DNA from: Winogradskyella sp.
GTDB lineage: Bacteria; Bacteroidota; Bacteroidia; Flavobacteriales; Flavobacteriaceae
Assembly: GCA_965230605.1 (NCBI GenBank)
Contig: CBDDLD010000004.1
Coordinates: 181,768-245,767, forward strand
Reading direction: 5' to 3'
Length of the DNA: 64,000 nucleotides
The notes below the pieces were generated by a model. The model made no database searches. It had not been told where the DNA came from and was given only the letters and a program-made list of their open reading frames with translations. Positions 29,622-38,385 of this stretch are shown here, one piece after another. Numbering within the stretch: position 1 is the stretch's first letter; each line of letters starts with the position of its first letter. Position numbers and translations under genes: made by a program.

Positions 29622-29703
29622 GGGAATGCGTCCACGTTGGAGAGTGGAGCCAGTCTGTAAAACTGGTGCCTTGGCTGAATAGGTTCGAATCCTATGATTC
29701 CCA
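29622..29703 (+). tRNA. tRNA-Tyr (GTA), class II with long variable arm, non-canonical C8
   Basis: Acceptor gggaatg/gattccc (6 of 7 pairs), anticodon stem ccagt/actgg with loop ctGTAaa, variable arm tgccttggctgaat, T-arm atagg-ttcgaat-cctat, discriminator A. Confidence 0.6.
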
Positions 29704-29708
29704 CAAAA

Positions 29709-29780
29709 GCATCTGTAGTGTAATTGGTAACATAGTAGACTTCCAATCTGCAGTTTCGGGTTCGAGTCTCGACAGGTGCT
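29709..29780 (+). tRNA. tRNA-Gly (TCC)
   Basis: Acceptor gcatctg/caggtgc, D-stem gtgt/acat, anticodon stem gtaga/tctgc with loop ctTCCaa, T-arm tcggg-ttcgagt-ctcga. Confidence 0.65.
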
Positions 29781-29790
29781 CATTTAAAAC

Positions 29791-29862
29791 ACGCTTATGG
29801 TGTAATTGGCAGCATCTGAGTCTCCAAAACTTAGGGTTGAGGTTCAAATCCTTATGGGCGTG
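29791..29862 (+). tRNA. tRNA-Trp (CCA), A1 start
   Basis: Acceptor acgctta/tgggcgt (includes G-U pairs), anticodon stem tgagt/actta with loop ctCCAaa, T-arm tgagg-ttcaaat-cctta. Confidence 0.6.
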
Positions 29863-29868
29863 CAAACT

Positions 29869-29941
29869 ATATCTATGGTGTAATTGGATAGCACAAGAGA
29901 TTTCTAATCTCTGAGTCCGAGTTCGACTCTTGGTAGATATA
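29869..29941 (+). tRNA. tRNA-Arg (TCT), A/T-only acceptor stem
   Basis: Acceptor atatcta/tagatat (7 of 7 pairs), D-stem gtgt/gcac, anticodon stem agaga/tctct with loop ttTCTaa, T-arm ccgag-ttcgact-cttgg, discriminator A. Confidence 0.65.
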
Positions 29942-29947
29942 CATAAT

Positions 29948-30019
29948 AGTATCGTGGTCTAATGGTAAGACACTTGACTGTCTCTCGAGAAGATGCGAGT
30001 TCGAATCTCGTCGGTACTG
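29948..30019 (+). tRNA. tRNA-Asp (GTC)-like, non-canonical T37
   Basis: Acceptor agtatcg/cggtact, D-arm gtct-aatggta-agac, anticodon stem cttga/tcgag with loop ctGTCtc (a pyrimidine at position 37), T-arm gcgag-ttcgaat-ctcgt. Confidence 0.5.
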
Positions 30020-30020
30020 C

Positions 30021-30105
30021 AAAAAGCGCTCTGAGAATACCGGTTATGGTGCTGGGTTCTATAGAAGAAGTATAAGAGGCCATGGCTTTACAGAGCGCAT
30101 TTTTT
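30021..30105 (+). other. 73-nt structured spacer closed by an 8-bp inverted repeat (aaaaaGCGCTCTG ... CAGAGCGCattttt) within the tRNA array
   Basis: The perfect 8-bp terminal stem is flanked by an A5 run on the 5' side and a T6 run on the 3' side. The interior carries the ACCGGT and GCCATGGC palindromes and has no T-loop. Function unknown. Confidence 0.4.
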
Positions 30106-30192
30106 GGAGAGTAGGCAAATATTGGTTTGTTGCGCTCACCTGCTAAGTGAGTTTACTTAGAGGTAATGAAGGTTCGATTCCTTTGCTCTCCG
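30106..30192 (+). tRNA. tRNA-Ser (GCT), class II
   Basis: Acceptor ggagagt/gctctcc, anticodon stem ctcac/gtgag with loop ctGCTaa, long variable arm ttacttagaggtaa, T-arm gaagg-ttcgatt-ccttt, discriminator G. Confidence 0.7.
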
Positions 30193-30198
30193 CTTTAT

Positions 30199-30271
30199 GC
30201 TCCATTAGCATAGTGGTTTAGTGCATCCGGCTTTCTACCGGAAGACAAGGGTTCGATTCCCTTATGGAGTA
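30199..30271 (+). tRNA. tRNA-Glu (TTC), T37
   Basis: Acceptor gctccat/atggagt, D-stem gcat/gtgc, anticodon stem tccgg/ccgga with loop ctTTCta, T-arm aaggg-ttcgatt-ccctt. Confidence 0.6.
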
Positions 30272-30276
30272 CATAT

Positions 30277-30349
30277 TGAGGTGTAGCTTAATTGGTAGAG
30301 CACCATGCTTTTAACATGGGTGATTTGGGTTCGAGGCCCAATGCCTCAA
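30277..30349 (+). tRNA. tRNA-Lys (TTT), T1 start
   Basis: Acceptor tgaggtg/tgcctca, canonical D-arm tagcttaattggtagagc, anticodon stem ccatg/catgg with loop ctTTTaa, T-arm ttggg-ttcgagg-cccaa. Confidence 0.65.
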
Positions 30350-30355
30350 CAATTA

Positions 30356-30430
30356 GCAGGAATGGCGAAAATGGCAAACGCACTTGATTTAGAATCGAGG
30401 AATTTGGGAGTTCGAGTCTCTCTTCCTGTA
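30356..30430 (+). tRNA. tRNA-Leu (TAG)-like with Leu-type D-arm but short (about 6-7 nt) variable loop
   Basis: Acceptor gcaggaa/ttcctgt, D-arm gcg-aaaatggcaaa-cgc (3-bp stem with 11-nt loop, as in tRNA-Leu), anticodon stem cttga/tcgag with loop ttTAGaa, variable loop gaatttg, T-arm gggag-ttcgagt-ctctc, discriminator A. Confidence 0.55.
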
Positions 30431-30434
30431 CAAT

Positions 30435-30508
30435 ACTCCACTAGCCCAAATGGAAGAGGCAACAGTCTTAAACACTGTATAGTCCAAGTTCGACTCTTGG
30501 GTGGAGTA
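30435..30508 (+). tRNA. tRNA-Leu (TAA)-like with Leu-type D-arm but 5-nt variable loop, A1 start
   Basis: Acceptor actccac/gtggagt (7 of 7 pairs), D-arm gcc-caaatggaaga-ggc, anticodon stem acagt/actgt with loop ctTAAac, variable loop atagt, T-arm ccaag-ttcgact-cttgg, discriminator A. Confidence 0.55.
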
Positions 30509-30530
30509 CAATAACCTAGCAGGTTATCTG

Positions 30531-30600
30531 GTGTCTATAGTGTAATGGCTCGCACGGGAGGTATATCCTCCCAGATCAAGTTCGAATCTTGATAGACATC
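30531..30600 (+). pseudogene. tRNA-like unit with truncated anticodon arm (6-bp stem, 5-nt loop tatat), probable pseudo-tRNA
   Basis: Acceptor gtgtcta/tagacat, D-arm gtgt-aatggctc-gcac, T-arm tcaag-ttcgaat-cttga. The anticodon region GGGAGGtatatCCTCCC cannot form a 7-nt loop. The unit is 70 nt. Confidence 0.45.
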
Positions 30601-30605
30601 ATAAT

Positions 30606-30678
30606 GGAACAGTAGCAAAGTTGGTCAATGCAGCAGATTGAAGCTCTGACGATATAGGTTCGATTCCTGTCTGTTCCG
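30606..30678 (+). tRNA. tRNA-Phe (GAA)
   Basis: Acceptor ggaacag/ctgttcc (7 of 7 pairs), anticodon stem gcaga/tctga (27-43 mismatch) with loop ttGAAgc, T-arm atagg-ttcgatt-cctgt, discriminator G. Confidence 0.6.
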
Positions 30679-30842
30679 CAATTAAAATATCAAGCTGGTC
30701 TTGTTGCGTGTTTCGGTATAGCACCATTGTATAAACCGTTGCAGAAATGTATAGCGGATTTATATGCAACCGGACTTGGAGGTTTGATGGTTCACCAAAA
30801 ACCATTACCAGTTCATGTGGGTTCGAATCCCACTATCTCTCA
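30679..30842 (+). pseudogene. Degenerate tRNA-like remnants (a D-arm-like ggtatagcacc; a Trp-like anticodon hairpin tggtt-caCCAaa-aacca with A33; an intact T-arm gtggg-ttcgaat-cccac with no matching 5' acceptor)
   Basis: The 3' portion folds like a tRNA 3' half, and its anticodon loop differs from the upstream tRNA-Trp loop (ctccaaa) by one substitution. No 5' acceptor strand complementary to tatctct could be found. Confidence 0.35.
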
Positions 30843-30953
30843 ACGGGATATGGCGGAAATGGCAGACGCACTAGATTTCGGTTCTAGCGAACAGTTGACA
30901 TCTGTAAAATGTCTCTTTTAGCACAGGTTCGATTCCTGTCAAAGCCACCATTT
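30843..30953 (+). pseudogene. Mosaic tRNA-like unit: Leu-type D-arm and anticodon arm (loop ttTCGgt), then a Tyr-like hairpin (gacat-ctGTAaa-atgtc), then the 3' half of tRNA-Met (T-arm, acceptor caaagcc, discriminator A, encoded CCA)
   Basis: The 5' strand cgggata does not pair with the 3' strand caaagcc. That 3' strand is exactly complementary to the 5' acceptor ggctttg of the downstream partial tRNA-Met. Confidence 0.4.
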
Positions 30954-31003
30954 AGGCTTTGTAGCTCAGTCCGGTTAGAGCGCTGCACTCATAATGCAGG
31001 TCG
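30954..31003 (+). pseudogene. tRNA-Met (CAT) 5' part (acceptor, D-arm, anticodon arm) lacking its own T-arm and 3' acceptor strand
   Basis: ggctttg-ta-gctc-agtccggttag-agc-g-ctgca-ctCATaa-tgcag, followed by the palindrome GGTCTTAAGACC in place of a T-arm. The matching 3' half lies immediately upstream at about 30920-30953. Confidence 0.5.
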
Positions 31004-31451
31004 GGTCTTAAGACCTCCATAAGCTTATCATCTTGTAAAACTGATAGTAAAGTAGTTTGTCACACTACTCAACAAAAATGACAAAAAGTAGTGATTGCCA
31101 ATCGGCCTAATAAATAACATTAGTGTTCAAAAAAGGCAATCTTAACGGTACCTTGATCTGTTGATTTGTTTTGCTTTAAGCAGTGACTTTTAGTGGATGA
31201 TTAAGATAAAATTATAGACAACCTACGATCTAAAATTCACCTTGATAAGAAACAAAAAACTTACTGTAGCGCGCATTACTATGAATAGATCCGTATTGAA
31301 GGGATGATTTGCAATCACACTTTTTTAAAGTAAAAAGATGAATTAAAAACAAACTCAAATGCATAGGTTACTTGCGCTTTAGCATTTGAGTGGCATAAGC
31401 CTCCGTTACAGGAATTGCCAAATATAGATGTTTAATTAAAAACTAAGAACA

Positions 31452-33495: not shown

Positions 33496-35886
33496 TTATC
33501 CTTTTGTGTCCAAAGTTATAACTTCTGAGACAAATTCGTTATCATTGGTAATGCCCTCAACATATAGATTTATCTCACCGATTTTAGTGTCAAATAGATT
33601 TATTTGTATTTCTCCATTTTCATTGGGTTGTAACTTTGGGAACCATCCGATGGTTCCATATTCTTTGAAGAAGGATGATGTGTAGAATTGGTATTTAGGG
33701 ATGTAAAACTTTTTTTTACTTTCAAATGTTAACGGTACTTTATAAGTGACAACATTGTCCGAATTTTTTTGAGCTGGACCATTCGGGTGTGTATATATTT
33801 TTATGAATCCGGCTTGTCCTCTAAATCCACCACCAAGACCTCGAAATTCAGATTCTATATAATCTACCATTTCGGTAGTTAAAAATGTAAGCGGTGTAAA
33901 ATCATTTAAAAGTGCATCATCCAGATACACTAAAGGAACATCTTTACCTCTGAGAATTTTAGGGTTGCGGATGACCAAAGTACCCGAGAAATAATCAAAT
34001 TGTGTCCGCCATCCTAATCGTTCAAGGTATAGATCTAAACGCTGCCCACGTAATCTATCATACTCATTAATAATACTTATTTTAGATTCTACAGCTTTAG
34101 TTAGAAGTTTTTCTGCTCGTGTTTGTTTTATATCTGTGGTAATTAGAACCTCGTCTAATTGCTCAACATTATCCCAAGACTCAACTGTGATAGGTTCACT
34201 AATAGAGAAATCATCTTTAGTGAAGCTCTCAGTCAGTGTGGTATAGCTGTTTGAATAGTCTGCAAAATTAGAAGGGTAAAATTGCAGGTATAGAGATGGC
34301 TTATTGTTGAATTTTGCTTTGTTTTTAAGGTAACCAATTCTAAAAAGATCGTCATCAGTCGGAATCATCATTTTAGCAGTAAATTCTTTCTCCCCTTTAT
34401 TTAGTTCAAATAATTTGGTATTAGTCTTTTCAAGAGGATAAACAATATAGGTGCCATCTCCCTTTTCTCCATTCACATTAGCAACAACATCGATACCTCT
34501 TTCAAAAGCATAGATGAATGTGTCATCAAAATTAAAAACAGTATCCCAATTATAACTGCTCCAGCCCTGAGACATCATCAGAAGGTCCATCTTATAATTA
34601 GTTGCTCTGTCATCATTTTCGAAATAGAGGTGAGCCTTTTCTATGGGACCATTGACATAGGGTTGAAGATAGATTTGCGATAAGATATTGTGATTGTGAT
34701 TATAAGATTTTGTATCAGAAGGAAGGACCGATACGCTTAAAGAGGTGTAAGTGTCTTTTTTTAGTTGCTCTAAAGTCAAGGCAACACTAATGCTATCTTT
34801 TGTGTTTTGTATCTTGGGTTGAGAGACTTTCTGGTAATTAATACCATTTTTATTGAAGTATAAACGCTCTAAAAGAGGACGATTTTGTTCATCAAAAACG
34901 GTGAATATATTTATTCCTGGATATAGGTCATTGACTGAAAATGCTAAAGCATACGTAAGATTTTTACTCAACTTAAATTTGGTCAAAAGCATTTCATCTC
35001 CATTATGAACTGCAAGGGTATAAATGTGGTCTTTAATAGACGCATAGGTAGTACTATTTGTTTGAAGACCTATATTTACTTTGTTATTGAGTTCTGTAAG
35101 TGTCATCGCAATACCTAATGGAGCAATATCCTTAATAGGTGCTGTAACTTTATCTTCGGACAAGTTTATTTCTGCACTATATGTTTTTCCTGTCTTTGGA
35201 CTAAAAGCTGCTTTGCCAATCCCCACACTATTAAGCTTAAATTCACTTACAATAACACCTTCATTATCCTTAATTTGTCCTGTGGCTTCTGCAATACCGT
35301 ATCCAAAATCATTTTTTGCGATGATAGCTACAGCATTGGTAACATCATATAAGATATGACCGCCTTCTCCAAGGATCTGAAGGTCAATACTTTTGCTTTG
35401 TATTTTAGTGGGATTGATTACTGCATTATTATCGGCATCAATCACTTTAAAAGATTGCTGATAGTGATTGGCTTCTTTAAAATTACGCATCCAGTTGGTA
35501 TACGCCTTAAAGGTATACACTCCGATACTTAAAGAATCATCAATATTAAACACATTAGTCGCTAAACCATCTTCAACGTAAATTAATTTCTTCTTTAATA
35601 CATTACCCTTGTCATCGGATATGGTGCAATATAGATTGGTGGTCATTTTTGAACGCTCTTTGGTAAACTTGTCAAAAATGTAAGCAGTAAACCCTAGCAT
35701 TTCACCCTCTATATATGTGGACTTATTTAAATGAACATATGCTAATTCTCTTGGAGCAGCAGCATAATCTTCATAGATATCTAAGAGTTCTTCCTCTAAA
35801 TCGTTTTGAGCAAAGCCTAAAAAAGGCAATAGCATAAAGAAGCAATAAAAGTACTTTGCAGACGTGCTTTTTGGCAGTAATGGCAT
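33496..35886 (-). CDS. Secreted MG2-domain (alpha-2-macroglobulin-like) protein, paralog 1
   Basis: Signal peptide. The N-terminal YVHLNKSTYIEGEMLGFTAYIF...ISDDKGNVL region matches the MG2 consensus (DKPIYKPGQTV.F.....D.KGN). 796 aa, with high identity to the upstream paralog. Confidence 0.5.
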   Translation of the reverse strand: MPLLPKSTSAKYFYCFFMLLPFLGFAQNDLEEELLDIYEDYAAAPRELAYVHLNKSTYIEGEMLGFTAYIFDKFTKERSKMTTNLYCTISDDKGNVLKKKLIYVEDGLATNVFNIDDSLSIGVYTFKAYTNWMRNFKEANHYQQSFKVIDADNNAVINPTKIQSKSIDLQILGEGGHILYDVTNAVAIIAKNDFGYGIAEATGQIKDNEGVIVSEFKLNSVGIGKAAFSPKTGKTYSAEINLSEDKVTAPIKDIAPLGIAMTLTELNNKVNIGLQTNSTTYASIKDHIYTLAVHNGDEMLLTKFKLSKNLTYALAFSVNDLYPGINIFTVFDEQNRPLLERLYFNKNGINYQKVSQPKIQNTKDSISVALTLEQLKKDTYTSLSVSVLPSDTKSYNHNHNILSQIYLQPYVNGPIEKAHLYFENDDRATNYKMDLLMMSQGWSSYNWDTVFNFDDTFIYAFERGIDVVANVNGEKGDGTYIVYPLEKTNTKLFELNKGEKEFTAKMMIPTDDDLFRIGYLKNKAKFNNKPSLYLQFYPSNFADYSNSYTTLTESFTKDDFSISEPITVESWDNVEQLDEVLITTDIKQTRAEKLLTKAVESKISIINEYDRLRGQRLDLYLERLGWRTQFDYFSGTLVIRNPKILRGKDVPLVYLDDALLNDFTPLTFLTTEMVDYIESEFRGLGGGFRGQAGFIKIYTHPNGPAQKNSDNVVTYKVPLTFESKKKFYIPKYQFYTSSFFKEYGTIGWFPKLQPNENGEIQINLFDTKIGEINLYVEGITNDNEFVSEVITLDTKG

Positions 35887-35955: not shown

Positions 35956-38385
35956 TCAGCCTTTGGTATTCAAAGTTATAACTTCTGAGATAAACTCATT
36001 GTCATTGGTAATACCTTCTATATATAAGTTAATAGTTTTAGTTTTTGTATTAAAAAACCTCATAGCGACTTCACCTTTCTCATTAGGTTTCAACTCCGGG
36101 AACCATCCAATAGTCCCGTATTCTTTAAAGAAGGATGTTGAGTAGAATTGATACTTAGGCGTATAAAACTTCTTTTTACTATCAAATGTTAAAGGGACTT
36201 TATAAGTAACAACATTATTCGGAGCTTTTTGTCTCCAGGCGTCACTGTCTGTGTAGATTTTTATGAATCCGGCTTGCCCTCGTATTCCACCACCTGTACC
36301 ATACCATTCATATTCTATATAATCTACCATATTAGTATATATATATGTTAGAGGCGTAAATTCATTTAAAAGCACATCATCTAGATAAACAAGAGGGACA
36401 TTATTACCCCAATTTATTCTTGGGTTGAAGATAGAGAGCGTACCTGAGAAATAATCAAATTGTGTCTGCCATCCCAGCCTTTCTAGGTATAGATCTAACC
36501 GTGCACCTCGCAATTTTTCATATTCATCAATGATATTCACGCGCGAATTTATAGCTTTATTTTTTAGTTTTTCCAGCCGTGTTTTCTCTACATCAGCAGT
36601 CACTGTAACTTCATCTAGTTGCTCTATATTTTTCCACGATTCTGTTGATATTGGAATGTTTACAGAATAATCATTTTTAGTATTAGCTTCTATTGGAGTT
36701 TTATATGCATTGGAATAGTCAGCAAATGTTGAGGGATAAAATTGCAGGTATAAAGATGGCTTATTGTTGAATTTCGCCTTGTTTTTTAGATAACCAATTC
36801 TGAAAAGGTCGTCTTCCGTTGGAATTATTGTCTTTGCAGTAAATTCTTTTTCACCTTTTTTGAGTTCAAATAGTTTGGTGTTCGATTTCTGTAAAGGGTA
36901 AATAACATAGGTGCCTTTCCCTTTTTCTCCATTAACATTGGCAACGACATCGATTCCTCTTTCAAATGGATATATAAATGTATCATTGTAATTAAAAACA
37001 GTATCCCAGTCATAACTACTCCAACCCTGAGACATCATCAGAAGATCTGTATTATACTTGGTGCCTCTATCATTATTCTCGAAGTAGAGATGTGCTTTTT
37101 CTATGGGCCCATTTACATAAGGTTGAAGATAAATTTGCGATAAGATATTGTGATTGTGATTATAAGACTTAGTATCAGAGGGGAGGACCGATACACTTAA
37201 AGAGGTATATACATCTTTCTTTAGTTGCTCTATAGTTAAGGCAATACTGATGCTGTCTTTTGCGGTTTGTATCTTGGATTGAGAAACTCTCTGATGCTTA
37301 ATCCCTTTTTTATTGAAGTATAAACGCTCTAAAAGAGGGCGATTTTGTTCATCAAAAACGGTGAATATATTTATTCCTGGATATAAATCCTCATTCAGGA
37401 ATGCAAGAGTATGGTTGCGACTTTCATTTAATTTAAATTTTGTGACCTGCATGTCATCGCCATTGTGAATAGCAAGCGTGTATATATGATCTTTAATAGC
37501 TTCATATGAAGCAATATTAGTTTGAAAGCCAATAGCTACTTTATCGTTAAGGTCTGTCAGGGTCATTGCTATACCAATAGGATCGATATCCTTAATATTT
37601 TCTGTAACCTTTCCGTCGGATAAGTTTATTTCAACACTATAAGTTTTTCCTAATTCAGGTGTGAAGGCTGTTTTTCCAATTCCAACACCATTAAGCTTAA
37701 ATTCACTTACAATAGTGCCCTCATTATCCATAATTTGCCCAGTAGCTTCTGCAATACCATACCCGAAATCATTTTTTGCGATGATAGCAACAGCATTGGT
37801 AACATTGTATAAAATATGGCCACCTTCTCCCAGAATTTGTAAGTCGATGCTCTCACTTTTTATTTTATTAGGATTCACAACAGCATTATTATCGGCATCT
37901 ATCACTTTAAAAGATTGTTGATAGTGATTGGCTTCTTTAAAATTACGCATCCAGTTAGTATAGGCTTTAAATGTATACACTCCGGTACTTAAAGAATCAT
38001 CAATATTAAACACATTAGTAGCTAAACCATCTTCAACGTAAATTAATTTCTTCTTTAATACATTACCCTTGTCATCAGATATGGTGCAATATAGATTGGT
38101 GGTCATCTTTGAACGTTCTTTGGTAAACTTATCAAAAATGTATGCGGTAAAACCTAGCATTTCACCTTCTATATATGTGGACTTGTTTAAATGAACATAT
38201 GCTAATTCTCTTGGCGCAGCAGCATAAGTTTCATAAGCATCAAGAAGTTCTTCCTCTAAGTCGTTTTGAGAGTAGCCTATAAAAGAGCATAAGAATACTA
38301 TATAGCAAAACAAATTAGAACACTTAATTTTAGTTGGTAATTTCATGATGGTGTGAGTGTTAGAATTCTGTAAGAAAATTATCAA
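35956..38385 (-). CDS. Secreted MG2-domain (alpha-2-macroglobulin-like) protein, paralog 2
   Basis: 809 aa, near-identical to paralog 1 over long stretches at both protein and nucleotide level. The true start is probably MKLPTKIKC (about 38346). Confidence 0.5.
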   Translation of the reverse strand: MIIFLQNSNTHTIMKLPTKIKCSNLFCYIVFLCSFIGYSQNDLEEELLDAYETYAAAPRELAYVHLNKSTYIEGEMLGFTAYIFDKFTKERSKMTTNLYCTISDDKGNVLKKKLIYVEDGLATNVFNIDDSLSTGVYTFKAYTNWMRNFKEANHYQQSFKVIDADNNAVVNPNKIKSESIDLQILGEGGHILYNVTNAVAIIAKNDFGYGIAEATGQIMDNEGTIVSEFKLNGVGIGKTAFTPELGKTYSVEINLSDGKVTENIKDIDPIGIAMTLTDLNDKVAIGFQTNIASYEAIKDHIYTLAIHNGDDMQVTKFKLNESRNHTLAFLNEDLYPGINIFTVFDEQNRPLLERLYFNKKGIKHQRVSQSKIQTAKDSISIALTIEQLKKDVYTSLSVSVLPSDTKSYNHNHNILSQIYLQPYVNGPIEKAHLYFENNDRGTKYNTDLLMMSQGWSSYDWDTVFNYNDTFIYPFERGIDVVANVNGEKGKGTYVIYPLQKSNTKLFELKKGEKEFTAKTIIPTEDDLFRIGYLKNKAKFNNKPSLYLQFYPSTFADYSNAYKTPIEANTKNDYSVNIPISTESWKNIEQLDEVTVTADVEKTRLEKLKNKAINSRVNIIDEYEKLRGARLDLYLERLGWQTQFDYFSGTLSIFNPRINWGNNVPLVYLDDVLLNEFTPLTYIYTNMVDYIEYEWYGTGGGIRGQAGFIKIYTDSDAWRQKAPNNVVTYKVPLTFDSKKKFYTPKYQFYSTSFFKEYGTIGWFPELKPNEKGEVAMRFFNTKTKTINLYIEGITNDNEFISEVITLNTKG

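What the first reader, a model, noticed from the sequence alone, without database searches (positions are those of the whole stretch)
30356..30508. Two Leu-anticodon tRNAs (TAG, TAA) with Leu-type D-arms and A73 but class-I-sized variable loops
Both units have the 3-bp D-stem and 11-nt D-loop characteristic of class II tRNA-Leu (gcg-aaaatggcaaa-cgc; gcc-caaatggaaga-ggc) and the Leu discriminator A73. Their variable regions are only about 5-7 nt, whereas all known bacterial and phage tRNA-Leu carry a 13-nt or longer variable arm. Short-arm tRNA-Leu is otherwise known mainly from animal mitochondria. These units could be miniaturised functional tRNAs, decoys for a tRNA-targeting enzyme, or decaying pseudogenes.
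Basis: seen in the sequence. Interest (0 to 1): 0.7.

Follow-up and report, generated by a model that had tools for sequence, protein, structure and literature searches.

The report
Short-arm leucine tRNAs in tRNA array
Two intact leucine tRNA genes that lack the usual long extra arm sit in a phage-like cluster of tRNA genes on a Bacteroidota chromosome; such "type I" leucine tRNAs are common in phages and several bacterial groups and were already shown to be charged in Streptomyces, so this is a new example of a known but little-advertised kind.

Summary
Window 30356-30430 (anticodon UAG) and 30435-30508 (UAA) are well-formed tRNA genes with a Leu-type D-arm (3-bp stem, 11-nt loop), A73, and variable loops of only 6 and 5 nt. 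The premise that this is unknown outside animal mitochondria is wrong. Ungapped homologues are annotated as tRNA-Leu in T5-like Vibrio phages, cluster-M mycobacteriophages and FelixO1-like coliphages. About a quarter of phage contigs with this kind of tRNA-Leu(UAR) carry the short form. Many Actinomycetota have a solitary chromosomal 74-nt tRNA-Leu. The family shows strong covariation, invariant A73/A14/A15/G18G19/A20a and near-invariant U48. A Flavobacteriaceae relative keeps unit 1 intact through four compensatory changes. Prior work exists: Fan et al. 2019 showed a Streptomyces type I tRNA-Leu is leucylated, and Behra et al. 2019 noted a short-loop tRNA-Leu(UAG) in transferred mycobacterial tRNA clusters. 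Most likely these are functional, horizontally acquired type I tRNA-Leu genes. Charging by this host's LeuRS is untested, and E. coli LeuRS rejected the Streptomyces one. Verdict: new member of a known kind; low to moderate interest.

The parts
30356..30430 (+). Unit 1: type I (short variable loop) tRNA-Leu, anticodon UAG. 75 nt to A73, 6-nt variable loop GAAUUU, G1-U72 wobble pair, no encoded CCA.
   Evidence: ARAGORN. RF00005 52.5 bits. 40.4 bits against a family profile built without it. 86.8% identical over its full length to Vibrio phage VspSw_1 tRNA-Leu(UAG). The Hyunsoonleella homologue is intact with compensatory changes.
30435..30508 (+). Unit 2: type I tRNA-Leu, anticodon UAA. 74 nt to A73, 5-nt variable loop AUAGU, A1-U72, no encoded CCA.
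   Evidence: ARAGORN. RF00005 53.1 bits. 44.7 bits against the family profile. The minimum-energy fold is the cloverleaf. Its D-arm GCCCAAWUGGAAGAGGC is shared with mycobacteriophage Rey and coliphage mistaenkt tRNA-Leu(UAG).
29622..30679 (+). The tRNA array that contains both units: 12 ARAGORN tRNA genes in 1.06 kb, in the order Tyr-GUA, Gly-UCC, Trp-CCA, Arg-UCU, Asp-GUC, Ser-GCU, Glu-UUC, Lys-UUU, Leu-UAG, Leu-UAA, an aberrant 'Tyr-AUA', Phe-GAA. Spacers are 3-20 nt except for one 85-nt gap. Ser and Tyr-GUA keep their long arms.
   Evidence: Members match tRNAs of diverse phages. Neighbouring genes are housekeeping, with no integrase among those scanned.
30846..30947 (+). Third, aberrant Leu-type gene downstream: Leu-type D-arm, anticodon UCG, a variable region of about 37 nt, ACCA, and two acceptor-stem mismatches. 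It is probably a rearranged or decaying array member.
   Evidence: RF00005 29.7 bits in a small search space. The family profile matches its 5' part at 30849-30878 with 14.1 bits.

Best explanation
The two units are genuine type I (short variable loop) tRNA-Leu genes, isoacceptors UAG (CUN codons) and UAA (UUR codons). They belong to a large family that is common in phage tRNA clusters and also occurs in bacterial chromosomes. Here they are part of a small, horizontally acquired, phage-type tRNA array in a Bacteroidota (Flavobacteriaceae-like) chromosome. Proposed mechanism: the array is transcribed and cut into individual tRNAs, and CCA is added enzymatically because it is not encoded. LeuRS charges both tRNAs with leucine using the elements bacterial LeuRS is known to read: A73, the U8-A14 pair, the A15-U48 pair, the G18G19/T-loop elbow and A20a. 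It needs neither the anticodon nor a long arm. The charged tRNAs then add decoding capacity for all six Leu codons. Shown here: the gene structure, family membership, selection on the fold, and conservation of the identity set. Inferred: transcription, processing, charging by this host's LeuRS, and horizontal or phage origin.
For: The structure is confirmed. Homologues run ungapped through the variable region and are annotated tRNA-Leu in phage records, including the same adjacent UAG+UAA pair in Vibrio phage VspSw_1 and X1. In the 4 phage records plus 120 viral contigs there are 186 short tRNA-Leu. All 186 have A73, which was not part of the search pattern, and 167 have a 17-nt Leu-type D-arm. 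tRNA-Ser and tRNA-Tyr in the same contigs nearly all keep long arms. In 120 bacterial genome loci there are 136 short tRNA-Leu, all with A73. On 102 sequences under 80% identical to each other, 98.4% of cells are paired, with 831 double-sided changes against about 229 in shuffles, and a covariation score of 1.055 against 0.13-0.20 for slid registers. Invariant positions are U8, A14, A15, G18, G19, A20a, A22 and A73, and U48 is at least 90% conserved. These match the E. coli LeuRS identity set listed in PMC9976931 and PMC6614811. A profile built without the window units scores them 44.7 and 40.4 bits, against 15.8 or less for the other array tRNAs. Unit 1's homologue in a Hyunsoonleella MAG differs by four fully compensatory stem changes and three wobble-compatible ones, with none disruptive, and scores 61.4 bits. 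A bacterial type I tRNA-Leu is leucylated in vitro by its own LeuRS (PMC6614811). UUA is the commonest Leu codon in the window's genes (44%), and CUA makes up 13%.
Against: Nothing here shows expression or charging. Fan et al. report that E. coli LeuRS and S. purpurogeneiscleroticus LeuRS could not charge the Streptomyces type I tRNA-Leu, and that a LeuRS-specific domain decides this, so acceptance by a Bacteroidota LeuRS cannot be assumed. The array is visibly decaying or rearranged at its 3' end (30530-30601 and 30680-31016). In the Hyunsoonleella relative the unit-2 homologue has a 57-nt insertion in place of the T-loop, so unit 2 may be dispensable. No dedicated promoter or terminator was recognised. 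The covariation set was collected with ARAGORN, which itself demands a cloverleaf, so the percentage paired is inflated by ascertainment.
Confidence: 0.75

Rival explanations
1. The units are non-functional relics. The array was acquired from a phage whose own host LeuRS accepted type I tRNA-Leu, but this host's LeuRS does not. The two genes would then be intact only because the transfer is recent.
For: E. coli-type LeuRS rejects a type I tRNA-Leu. The same array carries aberrant or broken members. The unit-2 homologue in Hyunsoonleella is interrupted. No promoter was recognised.
Against: Both units have perfect stems and high model scores. Unit 1 has diverged from its Flavobacteriaceae homologue by about 18% (82% identity over the 122-nt Leu-Leu segment) through compensatory changes only, which requires selection on the fold after divergence. 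The full LeuRS identity set is intact.
Confidence: 0.15
2. The units have an anti-defence role. Besides or instead of boosting translation, arm-less tRNA-Leu would be spare tRNAs that escape enzymes recognising class II tRNAs by their long arm. Examples are MenT3/AbiEii-type nucleotidyltransferase toxins. Translation would then continue when host tRNA-Leu is attacked.
For: The long variable arm is the handle for MenT3, and AbiEii appears to prefer class II tRNAs. tRNA arrays are discussed as candidate anti-defence systems (PMC12803027). The short form is enriched in phages and transferred arrays.
Against: MenT3 prefers tRNA-Ser and does not favour tRNA-Leu. No toxin specific for the tRNA-Leu arm is documented in what I read. 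Solitary chromosomal type I tRNA-Leu in Actinomycetota show that the short form also exists as an ordinary cellular tRNA. No defence genes were seen next to the array.
Confidence: 0.15
3. The units have a different amino-acid identity. They would be class I tRNAs of another isotype whose anticodons drifted to UAG/UAA, or would be charged by a synthetase other than LeuRS.
For: LeuRS does not read the anticodon, so the anticodon alone does not prove identity.
Against: The body is Leu-specific: 3-bp D-stem, 11-nt D-loop with A14, A15, G18G19 and A20a, plus U48 and A73. BLAST and profile matches are only to tRNA-Leu. Unit 1 has the G1-U72 pair that Fan et al. mention for E. coli tRNA-Leu(UAA).
Confidence: 0.03

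Closest known systems
Streptomyces coelicolor type I tRNA-Leu(CAA) (Fan et al. 2019, NAR 47:6369, PMC6614811)
   Same: A bacterial tRNA-Leu with a 5-nt variable loop and a normal D/T-loop elbow, presumably alongside type II tRNA-Leu in the same genome (only type II Ser and Tyr are visible in this window). It was shown to be leucylated by the organism's single LeuRS.
   Different: It is a single chromosomal CAA isoacceptor in a high-GC actinomycete, not UAG/UAA genes in a tRNA array of a low-GC Bacteroidota genome. Its variable loop ends in C48, whereas the window units and 90% or more of the family have U48. A73 is dispensable for ScoLeuRS, yet it is invariant in the family surveyed here.
Short-variable-loop tRNA-Leu(UAG) in horizontally transferred mycobacterial tRNA gene clusters (Behra et al. 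2019, PMC6582537)
   Same: The same situation: an extra tRNA-Leu(UAG) with a short variable loop, encoded in a transferred multi-tRNA cluster. In that case the core genome also has a normal long-arm copy.
   Different: Different phylum. It was only noted in one sentence, with no functional test. The window has an adjacent UAG+UAA pair.
Phage tRNA-Leu genes of 75-78 nt (Vibrio phages VspSw_1 and vB_ValS_X1, Mycobacterium phage Rey, Escherichia phage mistaenkt)
   Same: Direct sequence homologues: 86.8% identity to unit 1, and unit 2's D-arm is shared. The UAG+UAA adjacency is the same in the Vibrio phages. They have A73 and 5-7-nt variable loops.
   Different: They are encoded in virion genomes and mostly carry an encoded CCA. 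The window copies lie on a bacterial chromosome among housekeeping genes and lack CCA.
Animal mitochondrial tRNA-Leu
   Same: A class-I-sized variable loop, with A73 and A14 as identity elements.
   Different: Human mt-tRNA-Leu(UUR), the case described, is structurally loose and is charged by a dedicated LeuRS. The window units keep canonical G18G19, a UUCGA T-loop and full stems. ScoLeuRS does not charge human mt-tRNA-Leu.
Canonical bacterial type II tRNA-Leu (for example phage T5 tRNA-Leu(UAG), 85 nt)
   Same: The same D-arm architecture, A73, anticodons and, presumably, the same synthetase.
   Different: It has a variable arm of 11-21 nt, which the window units lack.

Membership tests
Bacterial/phage type I (short variable loop) tRNA-Leu | Leucine anticodon (NAG or YAA) | tested here: met
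   UAG and UAA, from ARAGORN and the Rfam alignment.
Bacterial/phage type I (short variable loop) tRNA-Leu | Variable region of 4-7 nt with no stem-loop | tested here: met
   6 nt (GAAUUU) and 5 nt (AUAGU). The family distribution among 186 phage members is 5 nt in 151, 6 nt in 24 and 7 nt in 9.
Bacterial/phage type I (short variable loop) tRNA-Leu | Leu-type D-arm: 3-bp stem with an unpaired 13:22, and an 11-nt loop carrying A14, A15, G18G19 and A20a | tested here: met
   Both units have it. These positions are invariant in 102 diverse members.
Bacterial/phage type I (short variable loop) tRNA-Leu | Discriminator A73 and U48 (partner of A15) | tested here: met
   Both units have A73 and a U at the last variable-loop position. 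A73 is present in 186/186, 136/136 and 155/155 family members in three collections. U48 is at least 90% conserved.
Bacterial/phage type I (short variable loop) tRNA-Leu | Overall sequence similarity to family members beyond generic tRNA features | tested here: met
   A profile HMM of 100 members, built without the window units, scores them 44.7 and 40.4 bits. The best other array tRNA scores 15.8 bits.
Bacterial/phage type I (short variable loop) tRNA-Leu | Charged with leucine by LeuRS | not testable with these tools
   This has been shown only for S. coelicolor tRNA-Leu(CAA) with ScoLeuRS. E. coli LeuRS did not charge that tRNA.
Canonical class II tRNA-Leu | Long variable arm (stem-loop, 11 nt or more) | tested here: not met
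   Only 5-6 nt lie between the anticodon and T stems, and no alternative fold supplies an arm.
tRNA array unit as defined by Tran et al. 2016 (PMC4758250) | At least 20 tRNA genes at 2 or more per kb | tested here: not met
   The density is far above the threshold (12 genes in 1.06 kb), but there are only 12 genes plus a few broken ones. It is a small cluster of the same nature, not an array unit by that definition (abstract).
Animal-mitochondrial-type tRNA-Leu | Structurally loose tRNA, as described for human mt-tRNA-Leu(UUR), charged by a dedicated mitochondrial LeuRS | tested here: not met
   The window units have canonical G18G19 and a GUUCGA T-loop. The looseness of human mt-tRNA-Leu(UUR) is from PMC9976931.

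The most novel reading that the evidence does not exclude
Loss of the long arm in phage- and array-borne tRNA-Leu is an adaptation rather than neutral shrinkage. Of the three bacterial class II tRNAs, only tRNA-Leu can lose the arm without losing its synthetase. An arm-less tRNA-Leu would be invisible to every factor that reads the class II arm: SerRS or TyrRS cross-charging in a foreign host, and MenT3/AbiEii-like toxins. Mobile tRNA sets would therefore carry type I tRNA-Leu as a host-range or anti-defence device, and the window's pair would be a chromosomal domestication of that device. The frequency of roughly a quarter of phage tRNA-Leu(UAR) would then mark a widespread, unrecognised strategy.
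Probability: 0.2. Interest if true: 0.6.

Novelty: new member of a known kind. Interest (0 to 1): 0.27.

Why it matters
For this locus the result is modest. It documents type I tRNA-Leu genes in a chromosomal tRNA cluster of a Bacteroidota genome, a phylum for which I found no published mention in the searchable library. It also gives comparative evidence that at least one of them is under selection. The wider by-product matters more. The textbook statement that tRNA-Leu always has a long arm except in animal mitochondria, repeated in a 2023 review, is contradicted by public sequence data. Short-arm tRNA-Leu are abundant in phages, occur as solitary chromosomal genes across Actinomycetota, and appear in arrays in Cyanobacteria, Acidobacteriota, Planctomycetota and others. 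Fan et al. found that not every LeuRS accepts a type I tRNA-Leu. The distribution therefore raises a testable question of LeuRS-tRNA co-evolution and phage host range. It also matters for annotation pipelines and for engineering orthogonal tRNA-Leu scaffolds.

Tried and rejected
1. An alternative fold or shifted T-stem giving a long arm: rejected, because the lengths are 75 and 74 nt, the Rfam alignment is end to end, and the thermodynamic folds show no arm.
2. Identifying the source organism through an exact-protein look-up of the flanking SPFH protein: no record.
The host is assigned to Bacteroidota only from a T9SS sorting domain, the 35% GC content and the Hyunsoonleella relative.
4. T5 as a classical precedent: rejected, because T5's tRNA-Leu(UAG) is an ordinary 85-nt type II gene.
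5. G1-U72 as a special family mark: dropped. It occurs in 38% of short and 17% of long phage tRNA-Leu, and Fan et al. mention it for E. coli tRNA-Leu(UAA).
6. Protein synteny between the window and the Hyunsoonleella locus: none found for six flanking proteins. Only a 265-nt non-coding stretch and the tRNAs are shared.
7. Synteny as proof that actinobacterial solitary type I tRNA-Leu genes are vertically inherited: the first attempt was uninformative. The second supports it only within Micrococcales.
8. Promoter and terminator scans gave nothing above background.
9. Six literature searches using phage plus variable-arm wording found nothing. The prior art surfaced only with 'tRNALeu' plus 'short variable'.
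10. Exact-match searches for the conserved downstream element found no other copies.

Full report
**1. The observation**

The window is a low-GC (about 0.35) bacterial chromosome. It carries a T9SS sorting-domain protein and ordinary housekeeping genes such as PEP carboxylase, MetRS, glutamate dehydrogenase and an MMPL transporter, so the host is a Bacteroidota. Between a TPR protein gene and an SPFH protein gene lies a dense cluster of 12 ARAGORN-predicted tRNA genes on the + strand, at 29622-30679.

The two units of the finding are genes 9 and 10 of this cluster.
- ARAGORN calls them tRNA-Leu(tag), 30356-30431, and tRNA-Leu(taa), 30435-30509.
- Rfam's tRNA model aligns both end to end in the class-I register, at 52.5 and 53.1 bits against a gathering score of 29.
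- The variable loops are 6 nt (GAAUUU) and 5 nt (AUAGU). CCA is not encoded.
- With only 5-6 nt between the anticodon and T stems, no variable-arm hairpin can form. Unit 2's minimum-energy fold is the cloverleaf.
- A pattern that encodes these features hits only these two sites in the window, with none expected by chance.

**2. The units are not unique**

A BLASTN search of the two units against GenBank phage records gave ungapped matches running straight through the variable region. The matched genes include:
- T5-like Vibrio phages (VspSw_1: 86.8% identity over all 76 nt);
- cluster-M mycobacteriophages (Rey and relatives);
- FelixO1-like coliphages.

Many of these genes are annotated tRNA-Leu by their depositors, at 75-78 nt. 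ARAGORN confirms this. VspSw_1 and X1 have the same adjacent Leu(UAG)+Leu(UAA) pair. Rey has Leu(UAG)+Leu(CAA). Coliphage mistaenkt has three short tRNA-Leu. Phage T5 itself has a normal 85-nt tRNA-Leu(UAG).

**3. How common the short form is**

I scanned IMG/VR with a degenerate pattern requiring a Leu D-loop, a YAR anticodon and a T-loop at class-I spacing. The scan stopped at its 120-contig limit.

In those contigs plus the four phage records, ARAGORN finds 186 tRNA-Leu with variable loops of 4-8 nt.
- The loop is 5 nt in 151, 6 nt in 24 and 7 nt in 9.
- All six Leu anticodons are represented.
- A73 is present in 186/186, although A73 was not in the pattern.
- The D-arm is the 17-nt Leu type in 167/186.
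- In the same contigs nearly all tRNA-Ser (107 of 108 are 81-93 nt) and tRNA-Tyr (76-91 nt) keep long variable arms.

A second scan constrained only the D-loop and anticodon, so it was blind to variable-region length. It also stopped at 120 contigs. Of these, 84 were new, and their matched genes were 76 long and 1 short. The other 36 were contigs already collected for their short genes. So roughly 20-30% of phage contigs with this kind of tRNA-Leu(UAR) carry the short form. This is an estimate from a capped scan, not a census.

**4. Bacterial genomes**

It yielded 136 short tRNA-Leu, all with A73.

Most are solitary genes, with a median of one tRNA per 8-kb locus. They are a 74-nt tRNA-Leu(UAA) in Mycobacterium, Nocardia, Gordonia, Rhodococcus, Arthrobacter, Acidimicrobiia and others, and a tRNA-Leu(CAA) in Corynebacterium. 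They are nearly identical across genera apart from compensatory stem changes.

A flanking gene is conserved across Micrococcales families, which fits vertical inheritance there. I could not show the same for Mycobacteriales.

Other hits lie in multi-tRNA arrays in Cyanobacteria (Cylindrospermum with 26 tRNAs, Moorena), Cellvibrionaceae, Haliangiales, Acidobacteriota, Planctomycetota and Rhodocyclaceae. Two are in Bacteroidota.

A metagenome scan for the unit-1 subfamily found 45 contigs, mostly large arrays. In several of them every tRNA-Leu isoacceptor is short while Ser and Tyr are long.

**5. Selection on the fold and on identity elements**

I aligned 100 family members that are under 80% identical to one another, plus the two window units. 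I then counted pairs for the class-I cloverleaf with a 3-bp D-stem.
- 98.4% of cells are paired, against 58% in shuffles and 34-46% in slid registers.
- There are 831 double-sided changes, against about 229 in shuffles.
- The covariation score is 1.055, against 0.13-0.20 for slid registers.
- 19 of 20 pairs show compensatory change.

The percentage paired is inflated because ARAGORN selected the sequences. The slid-register contrast and the number of pair types are not explained by that.

Invariant positions are U8, A14, A15, G18, G19, A20a, A22, the T-loop and A73, and U48 is at least 90% conserved. These are the positions listed as E. coli LeuRS identity elements: A73, A14, A15-U48, G18G19 and A20a (PMC9976931; PMC6614811). 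Both window units have all of them.

A profile HMM built without the window units scores them 44.7 and 40.4 bits over their full length. The next-best tRNA of the array scores 15.8 bits.

**6. Direct evidence in the host's own lineage**

One genome hit, L213, is an uncultured Hyunsoonleella MAG (Flavobacteriaceae). It carries a related array downstream of a shared 265-nt non-coding stretch.

Its unit-1 homologue scores 61.4 bits and has the same D-arm and T-arm as the window's unit 1.
- The acceptor stem is different but fully paired: GCAGGAA/UUCCUGU against GUGGGGG/UCCCCAU, with G1-U72 retained.
- The anticodon stem is also changed but paired.
- In total there are four fully compensatory double changes, three wobble-compatible single changes and no disruptive ones (read).

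This is good evidence that unit 1 is maintained as a folded tRNA in Flavobacteriaceae.

Unit 2 is less secure. Its Hyunsoonleella homologue keeps paired, co-varied acceptor and anticodon stems but has 57 nt where the T-loop should be.

**7. What was already known**

- Fan et al. 2019 (PMC6614811) described a type I tRNA-Leu(CAA) with a 5-nt variable loop in Streptomyces coelicolor. They showed that ScoLeuRS charges it, that the number of variable-loop nucleotides matters, that E. coli LeuRS and one other Streptomyces LeuRS do not charge it, and that the leucine-specific domain of LeuRS decides this.
- Behra et al. 2019 (PMC6582537) remarked that the tRNA-Leu(UAG) of a horizontally transferred mycobacterial tRNA cluster 'has a short variable loop'.
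- The MenT3 study names tRNA-Leu-2, 3 and 5 of M. tuberculosis in particular as having long loops, which suggests the other two do not.

Against this, Fan et al. regard the type I form as rare in bacteria, and the 2023 identity review does not cite them. That review states that tRNA-Leu has a long arm everywhere except animal mitochondria. I found no paper in the searchable library describing the abundance in phages. The kind is therefore known, although its breadth seems under-appreciated.

**8. Most likely mechanism, and the rivals**

The best-supported reading is that the two units are functional type I tRNA-Leu genes of a horizontally acquired, phage-type tRNA cluster.
- They would be transcribed with their neighbours, processed and CCA-tailed.
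- LeuRS would leucylate them through A73 and the D-loop/T-loop/position-48 core, which needs no long arm.
- They would add decoding capacity for UUR and CUN codons. UUA alone is 44% of the Leu codons in the window's genes.

Only Leu among the class II tRNAs appears in short form. This fits what is known of the synthetases, since the long variable arm is important for SerRS binding. I did not check TyrRS.

The main uncertainty is whether this host's LeuRS accepts type I substrates, given Fan et al.'s negative result with E. coli LeuRS.

The rivals are:
- relics that are intact but uncharged (about 0.15);
- an anti-defence role as arm-less spares that escape enzymes reading the class II arm (about 0.15, not exclusive with the main reading; suggested but without direct support);
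- a non-leucine identity (about 0.03).

**9. Verdict**

The finding is a new member of a known kind, and its interest is low to moderate.

The surroundings hold more unusual things than the finding itself. These include a conserved structured element and two permuted, Y-RNA-like tRNA modules just downstream, and insertion-bearing tRNA genes in the related Hyunsoonleella array. They are listed under things noticed in passing.

Noticed in passing
window 30686-30834: The stretch after tRNA-Phe looked like debris but is a conserved element. It is shared with metagenome contig L256 (Ga0065714_10123850), with long 100%-identical blocks. The consensus fold is a domain of about 90 nt in which 6 of 34 pairs are compensatory, although only two sequences were available. 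The domain is followed by a T-arm, GTGGG-TTCGAAT-CCCAC. The L256 copy hits Rfam YrlA (Y RNA-like) at 36.8 bits, below the gathering score of 69. No exact copies were found in viral contigs.
   Followed up: partly
window 30813-30865 and 30917-30975: Two 'permuted tRNA' modules run T-arm, then an acceptor stem closed by a loop (tatctc-tcaac-gggata; caaagcc-accattta-ggctttg), then a D-arm. As I recall it (not verified here), this is the order of the tRNA-like domain of bacterial Y RNAs (YrlA). The second module aligns to YrlA model positions 30-81 at 28.9 bits, below threshold. None of the 20 window ORFs I scanned has a Ro/TROVE domain. An alternative reading is recombined tandem tRNA genes.
   Followed up: partly
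window 30846-30947: A borderline tRNA (RF00005 29.7 bits) has a Leu-type D-arm, A73 and an encoded CCA, but an arginine anticodon, UCG. Its variable region is about 37 nt and contains a hairpin that looks like a GUA anticodon arm. There are two acceptor mismatches. If it were expressed and charged by LeuRS, it would read CGA as Leu. More likely it is a chimeric pseudogene.
   Followed up: partly
window 30955-31016: A tRNA-Met/Ile2(CAU)-like gene has intact acceptor 5' strand, D-arm and anticodon arm but no T-arm (RF00005 30.3 bits). It probably marks the truncated right-hand end of the array.
   Followed up: no
window 30530-30601: ARAGORN calls a 72-nt 'tRNA-Tyr' with anticodon AUA. It has U at position 37 and a possible sixth anticodon-stem pair (G32-C38). 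Rfam's tRNA model did not report it at E below 1. It is an aberrant or decaying array member.
   Followed up: no
L213 5792-5912, 6076-6205, 6209-6330 (uncultured Hyunsoonleella sp. MAG CAZLTR010000018.1): Three tRNA genes in the related Flavobacteriaceae array carry insertions of about 49-57 nt. One replaces the T-loop of the unit-2 homologue. The other two lie in or next to anticodon loops; ARAGORN calls them tRNA-Arg(tcg) with a 49-nt intron and, at a relaxed threshold, a tRNA with a 54-nt intron. Two of the insertions share the motif GTATTCACGAT. As far as I know, short insertions or introns of this size are not a described feature of bacterial tRNA genes.
   Followed up: partly
window 30024-30099: The only long spacer in the array, between tRNA-Asp and tRNA-Ser, is bracketed by an 8-bp inverted repeat (gcgctctg ... 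cagagcgc) followed by a T-run. It could be an internal terminator or a small structured RNA. The terminator scan did not call it because the loop is long.
   Followed up: no
L126-L245 (genome-contig hits), e.g. L130, L129, L151, L134: A solitary chromosomal 74-nt tRNA-Leu(UAA), or (CAA) in Corynebacterium, with a 5-nt variable loop is widespread and highly conserved across Actinomycetota. This contradicts the statement in a 2023 review that tRNA-Leu has a long arm in all organisms except animal mitochondria.
   Followed up: partly
window 33496-35886 and 35956-38385 (- strand): Two tandem paralogous genes encode proteins of about 800 aa whose N-terminal regions are nearly identical in sequence. 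The one I scanned has no Pfam match.
   Followed up: no
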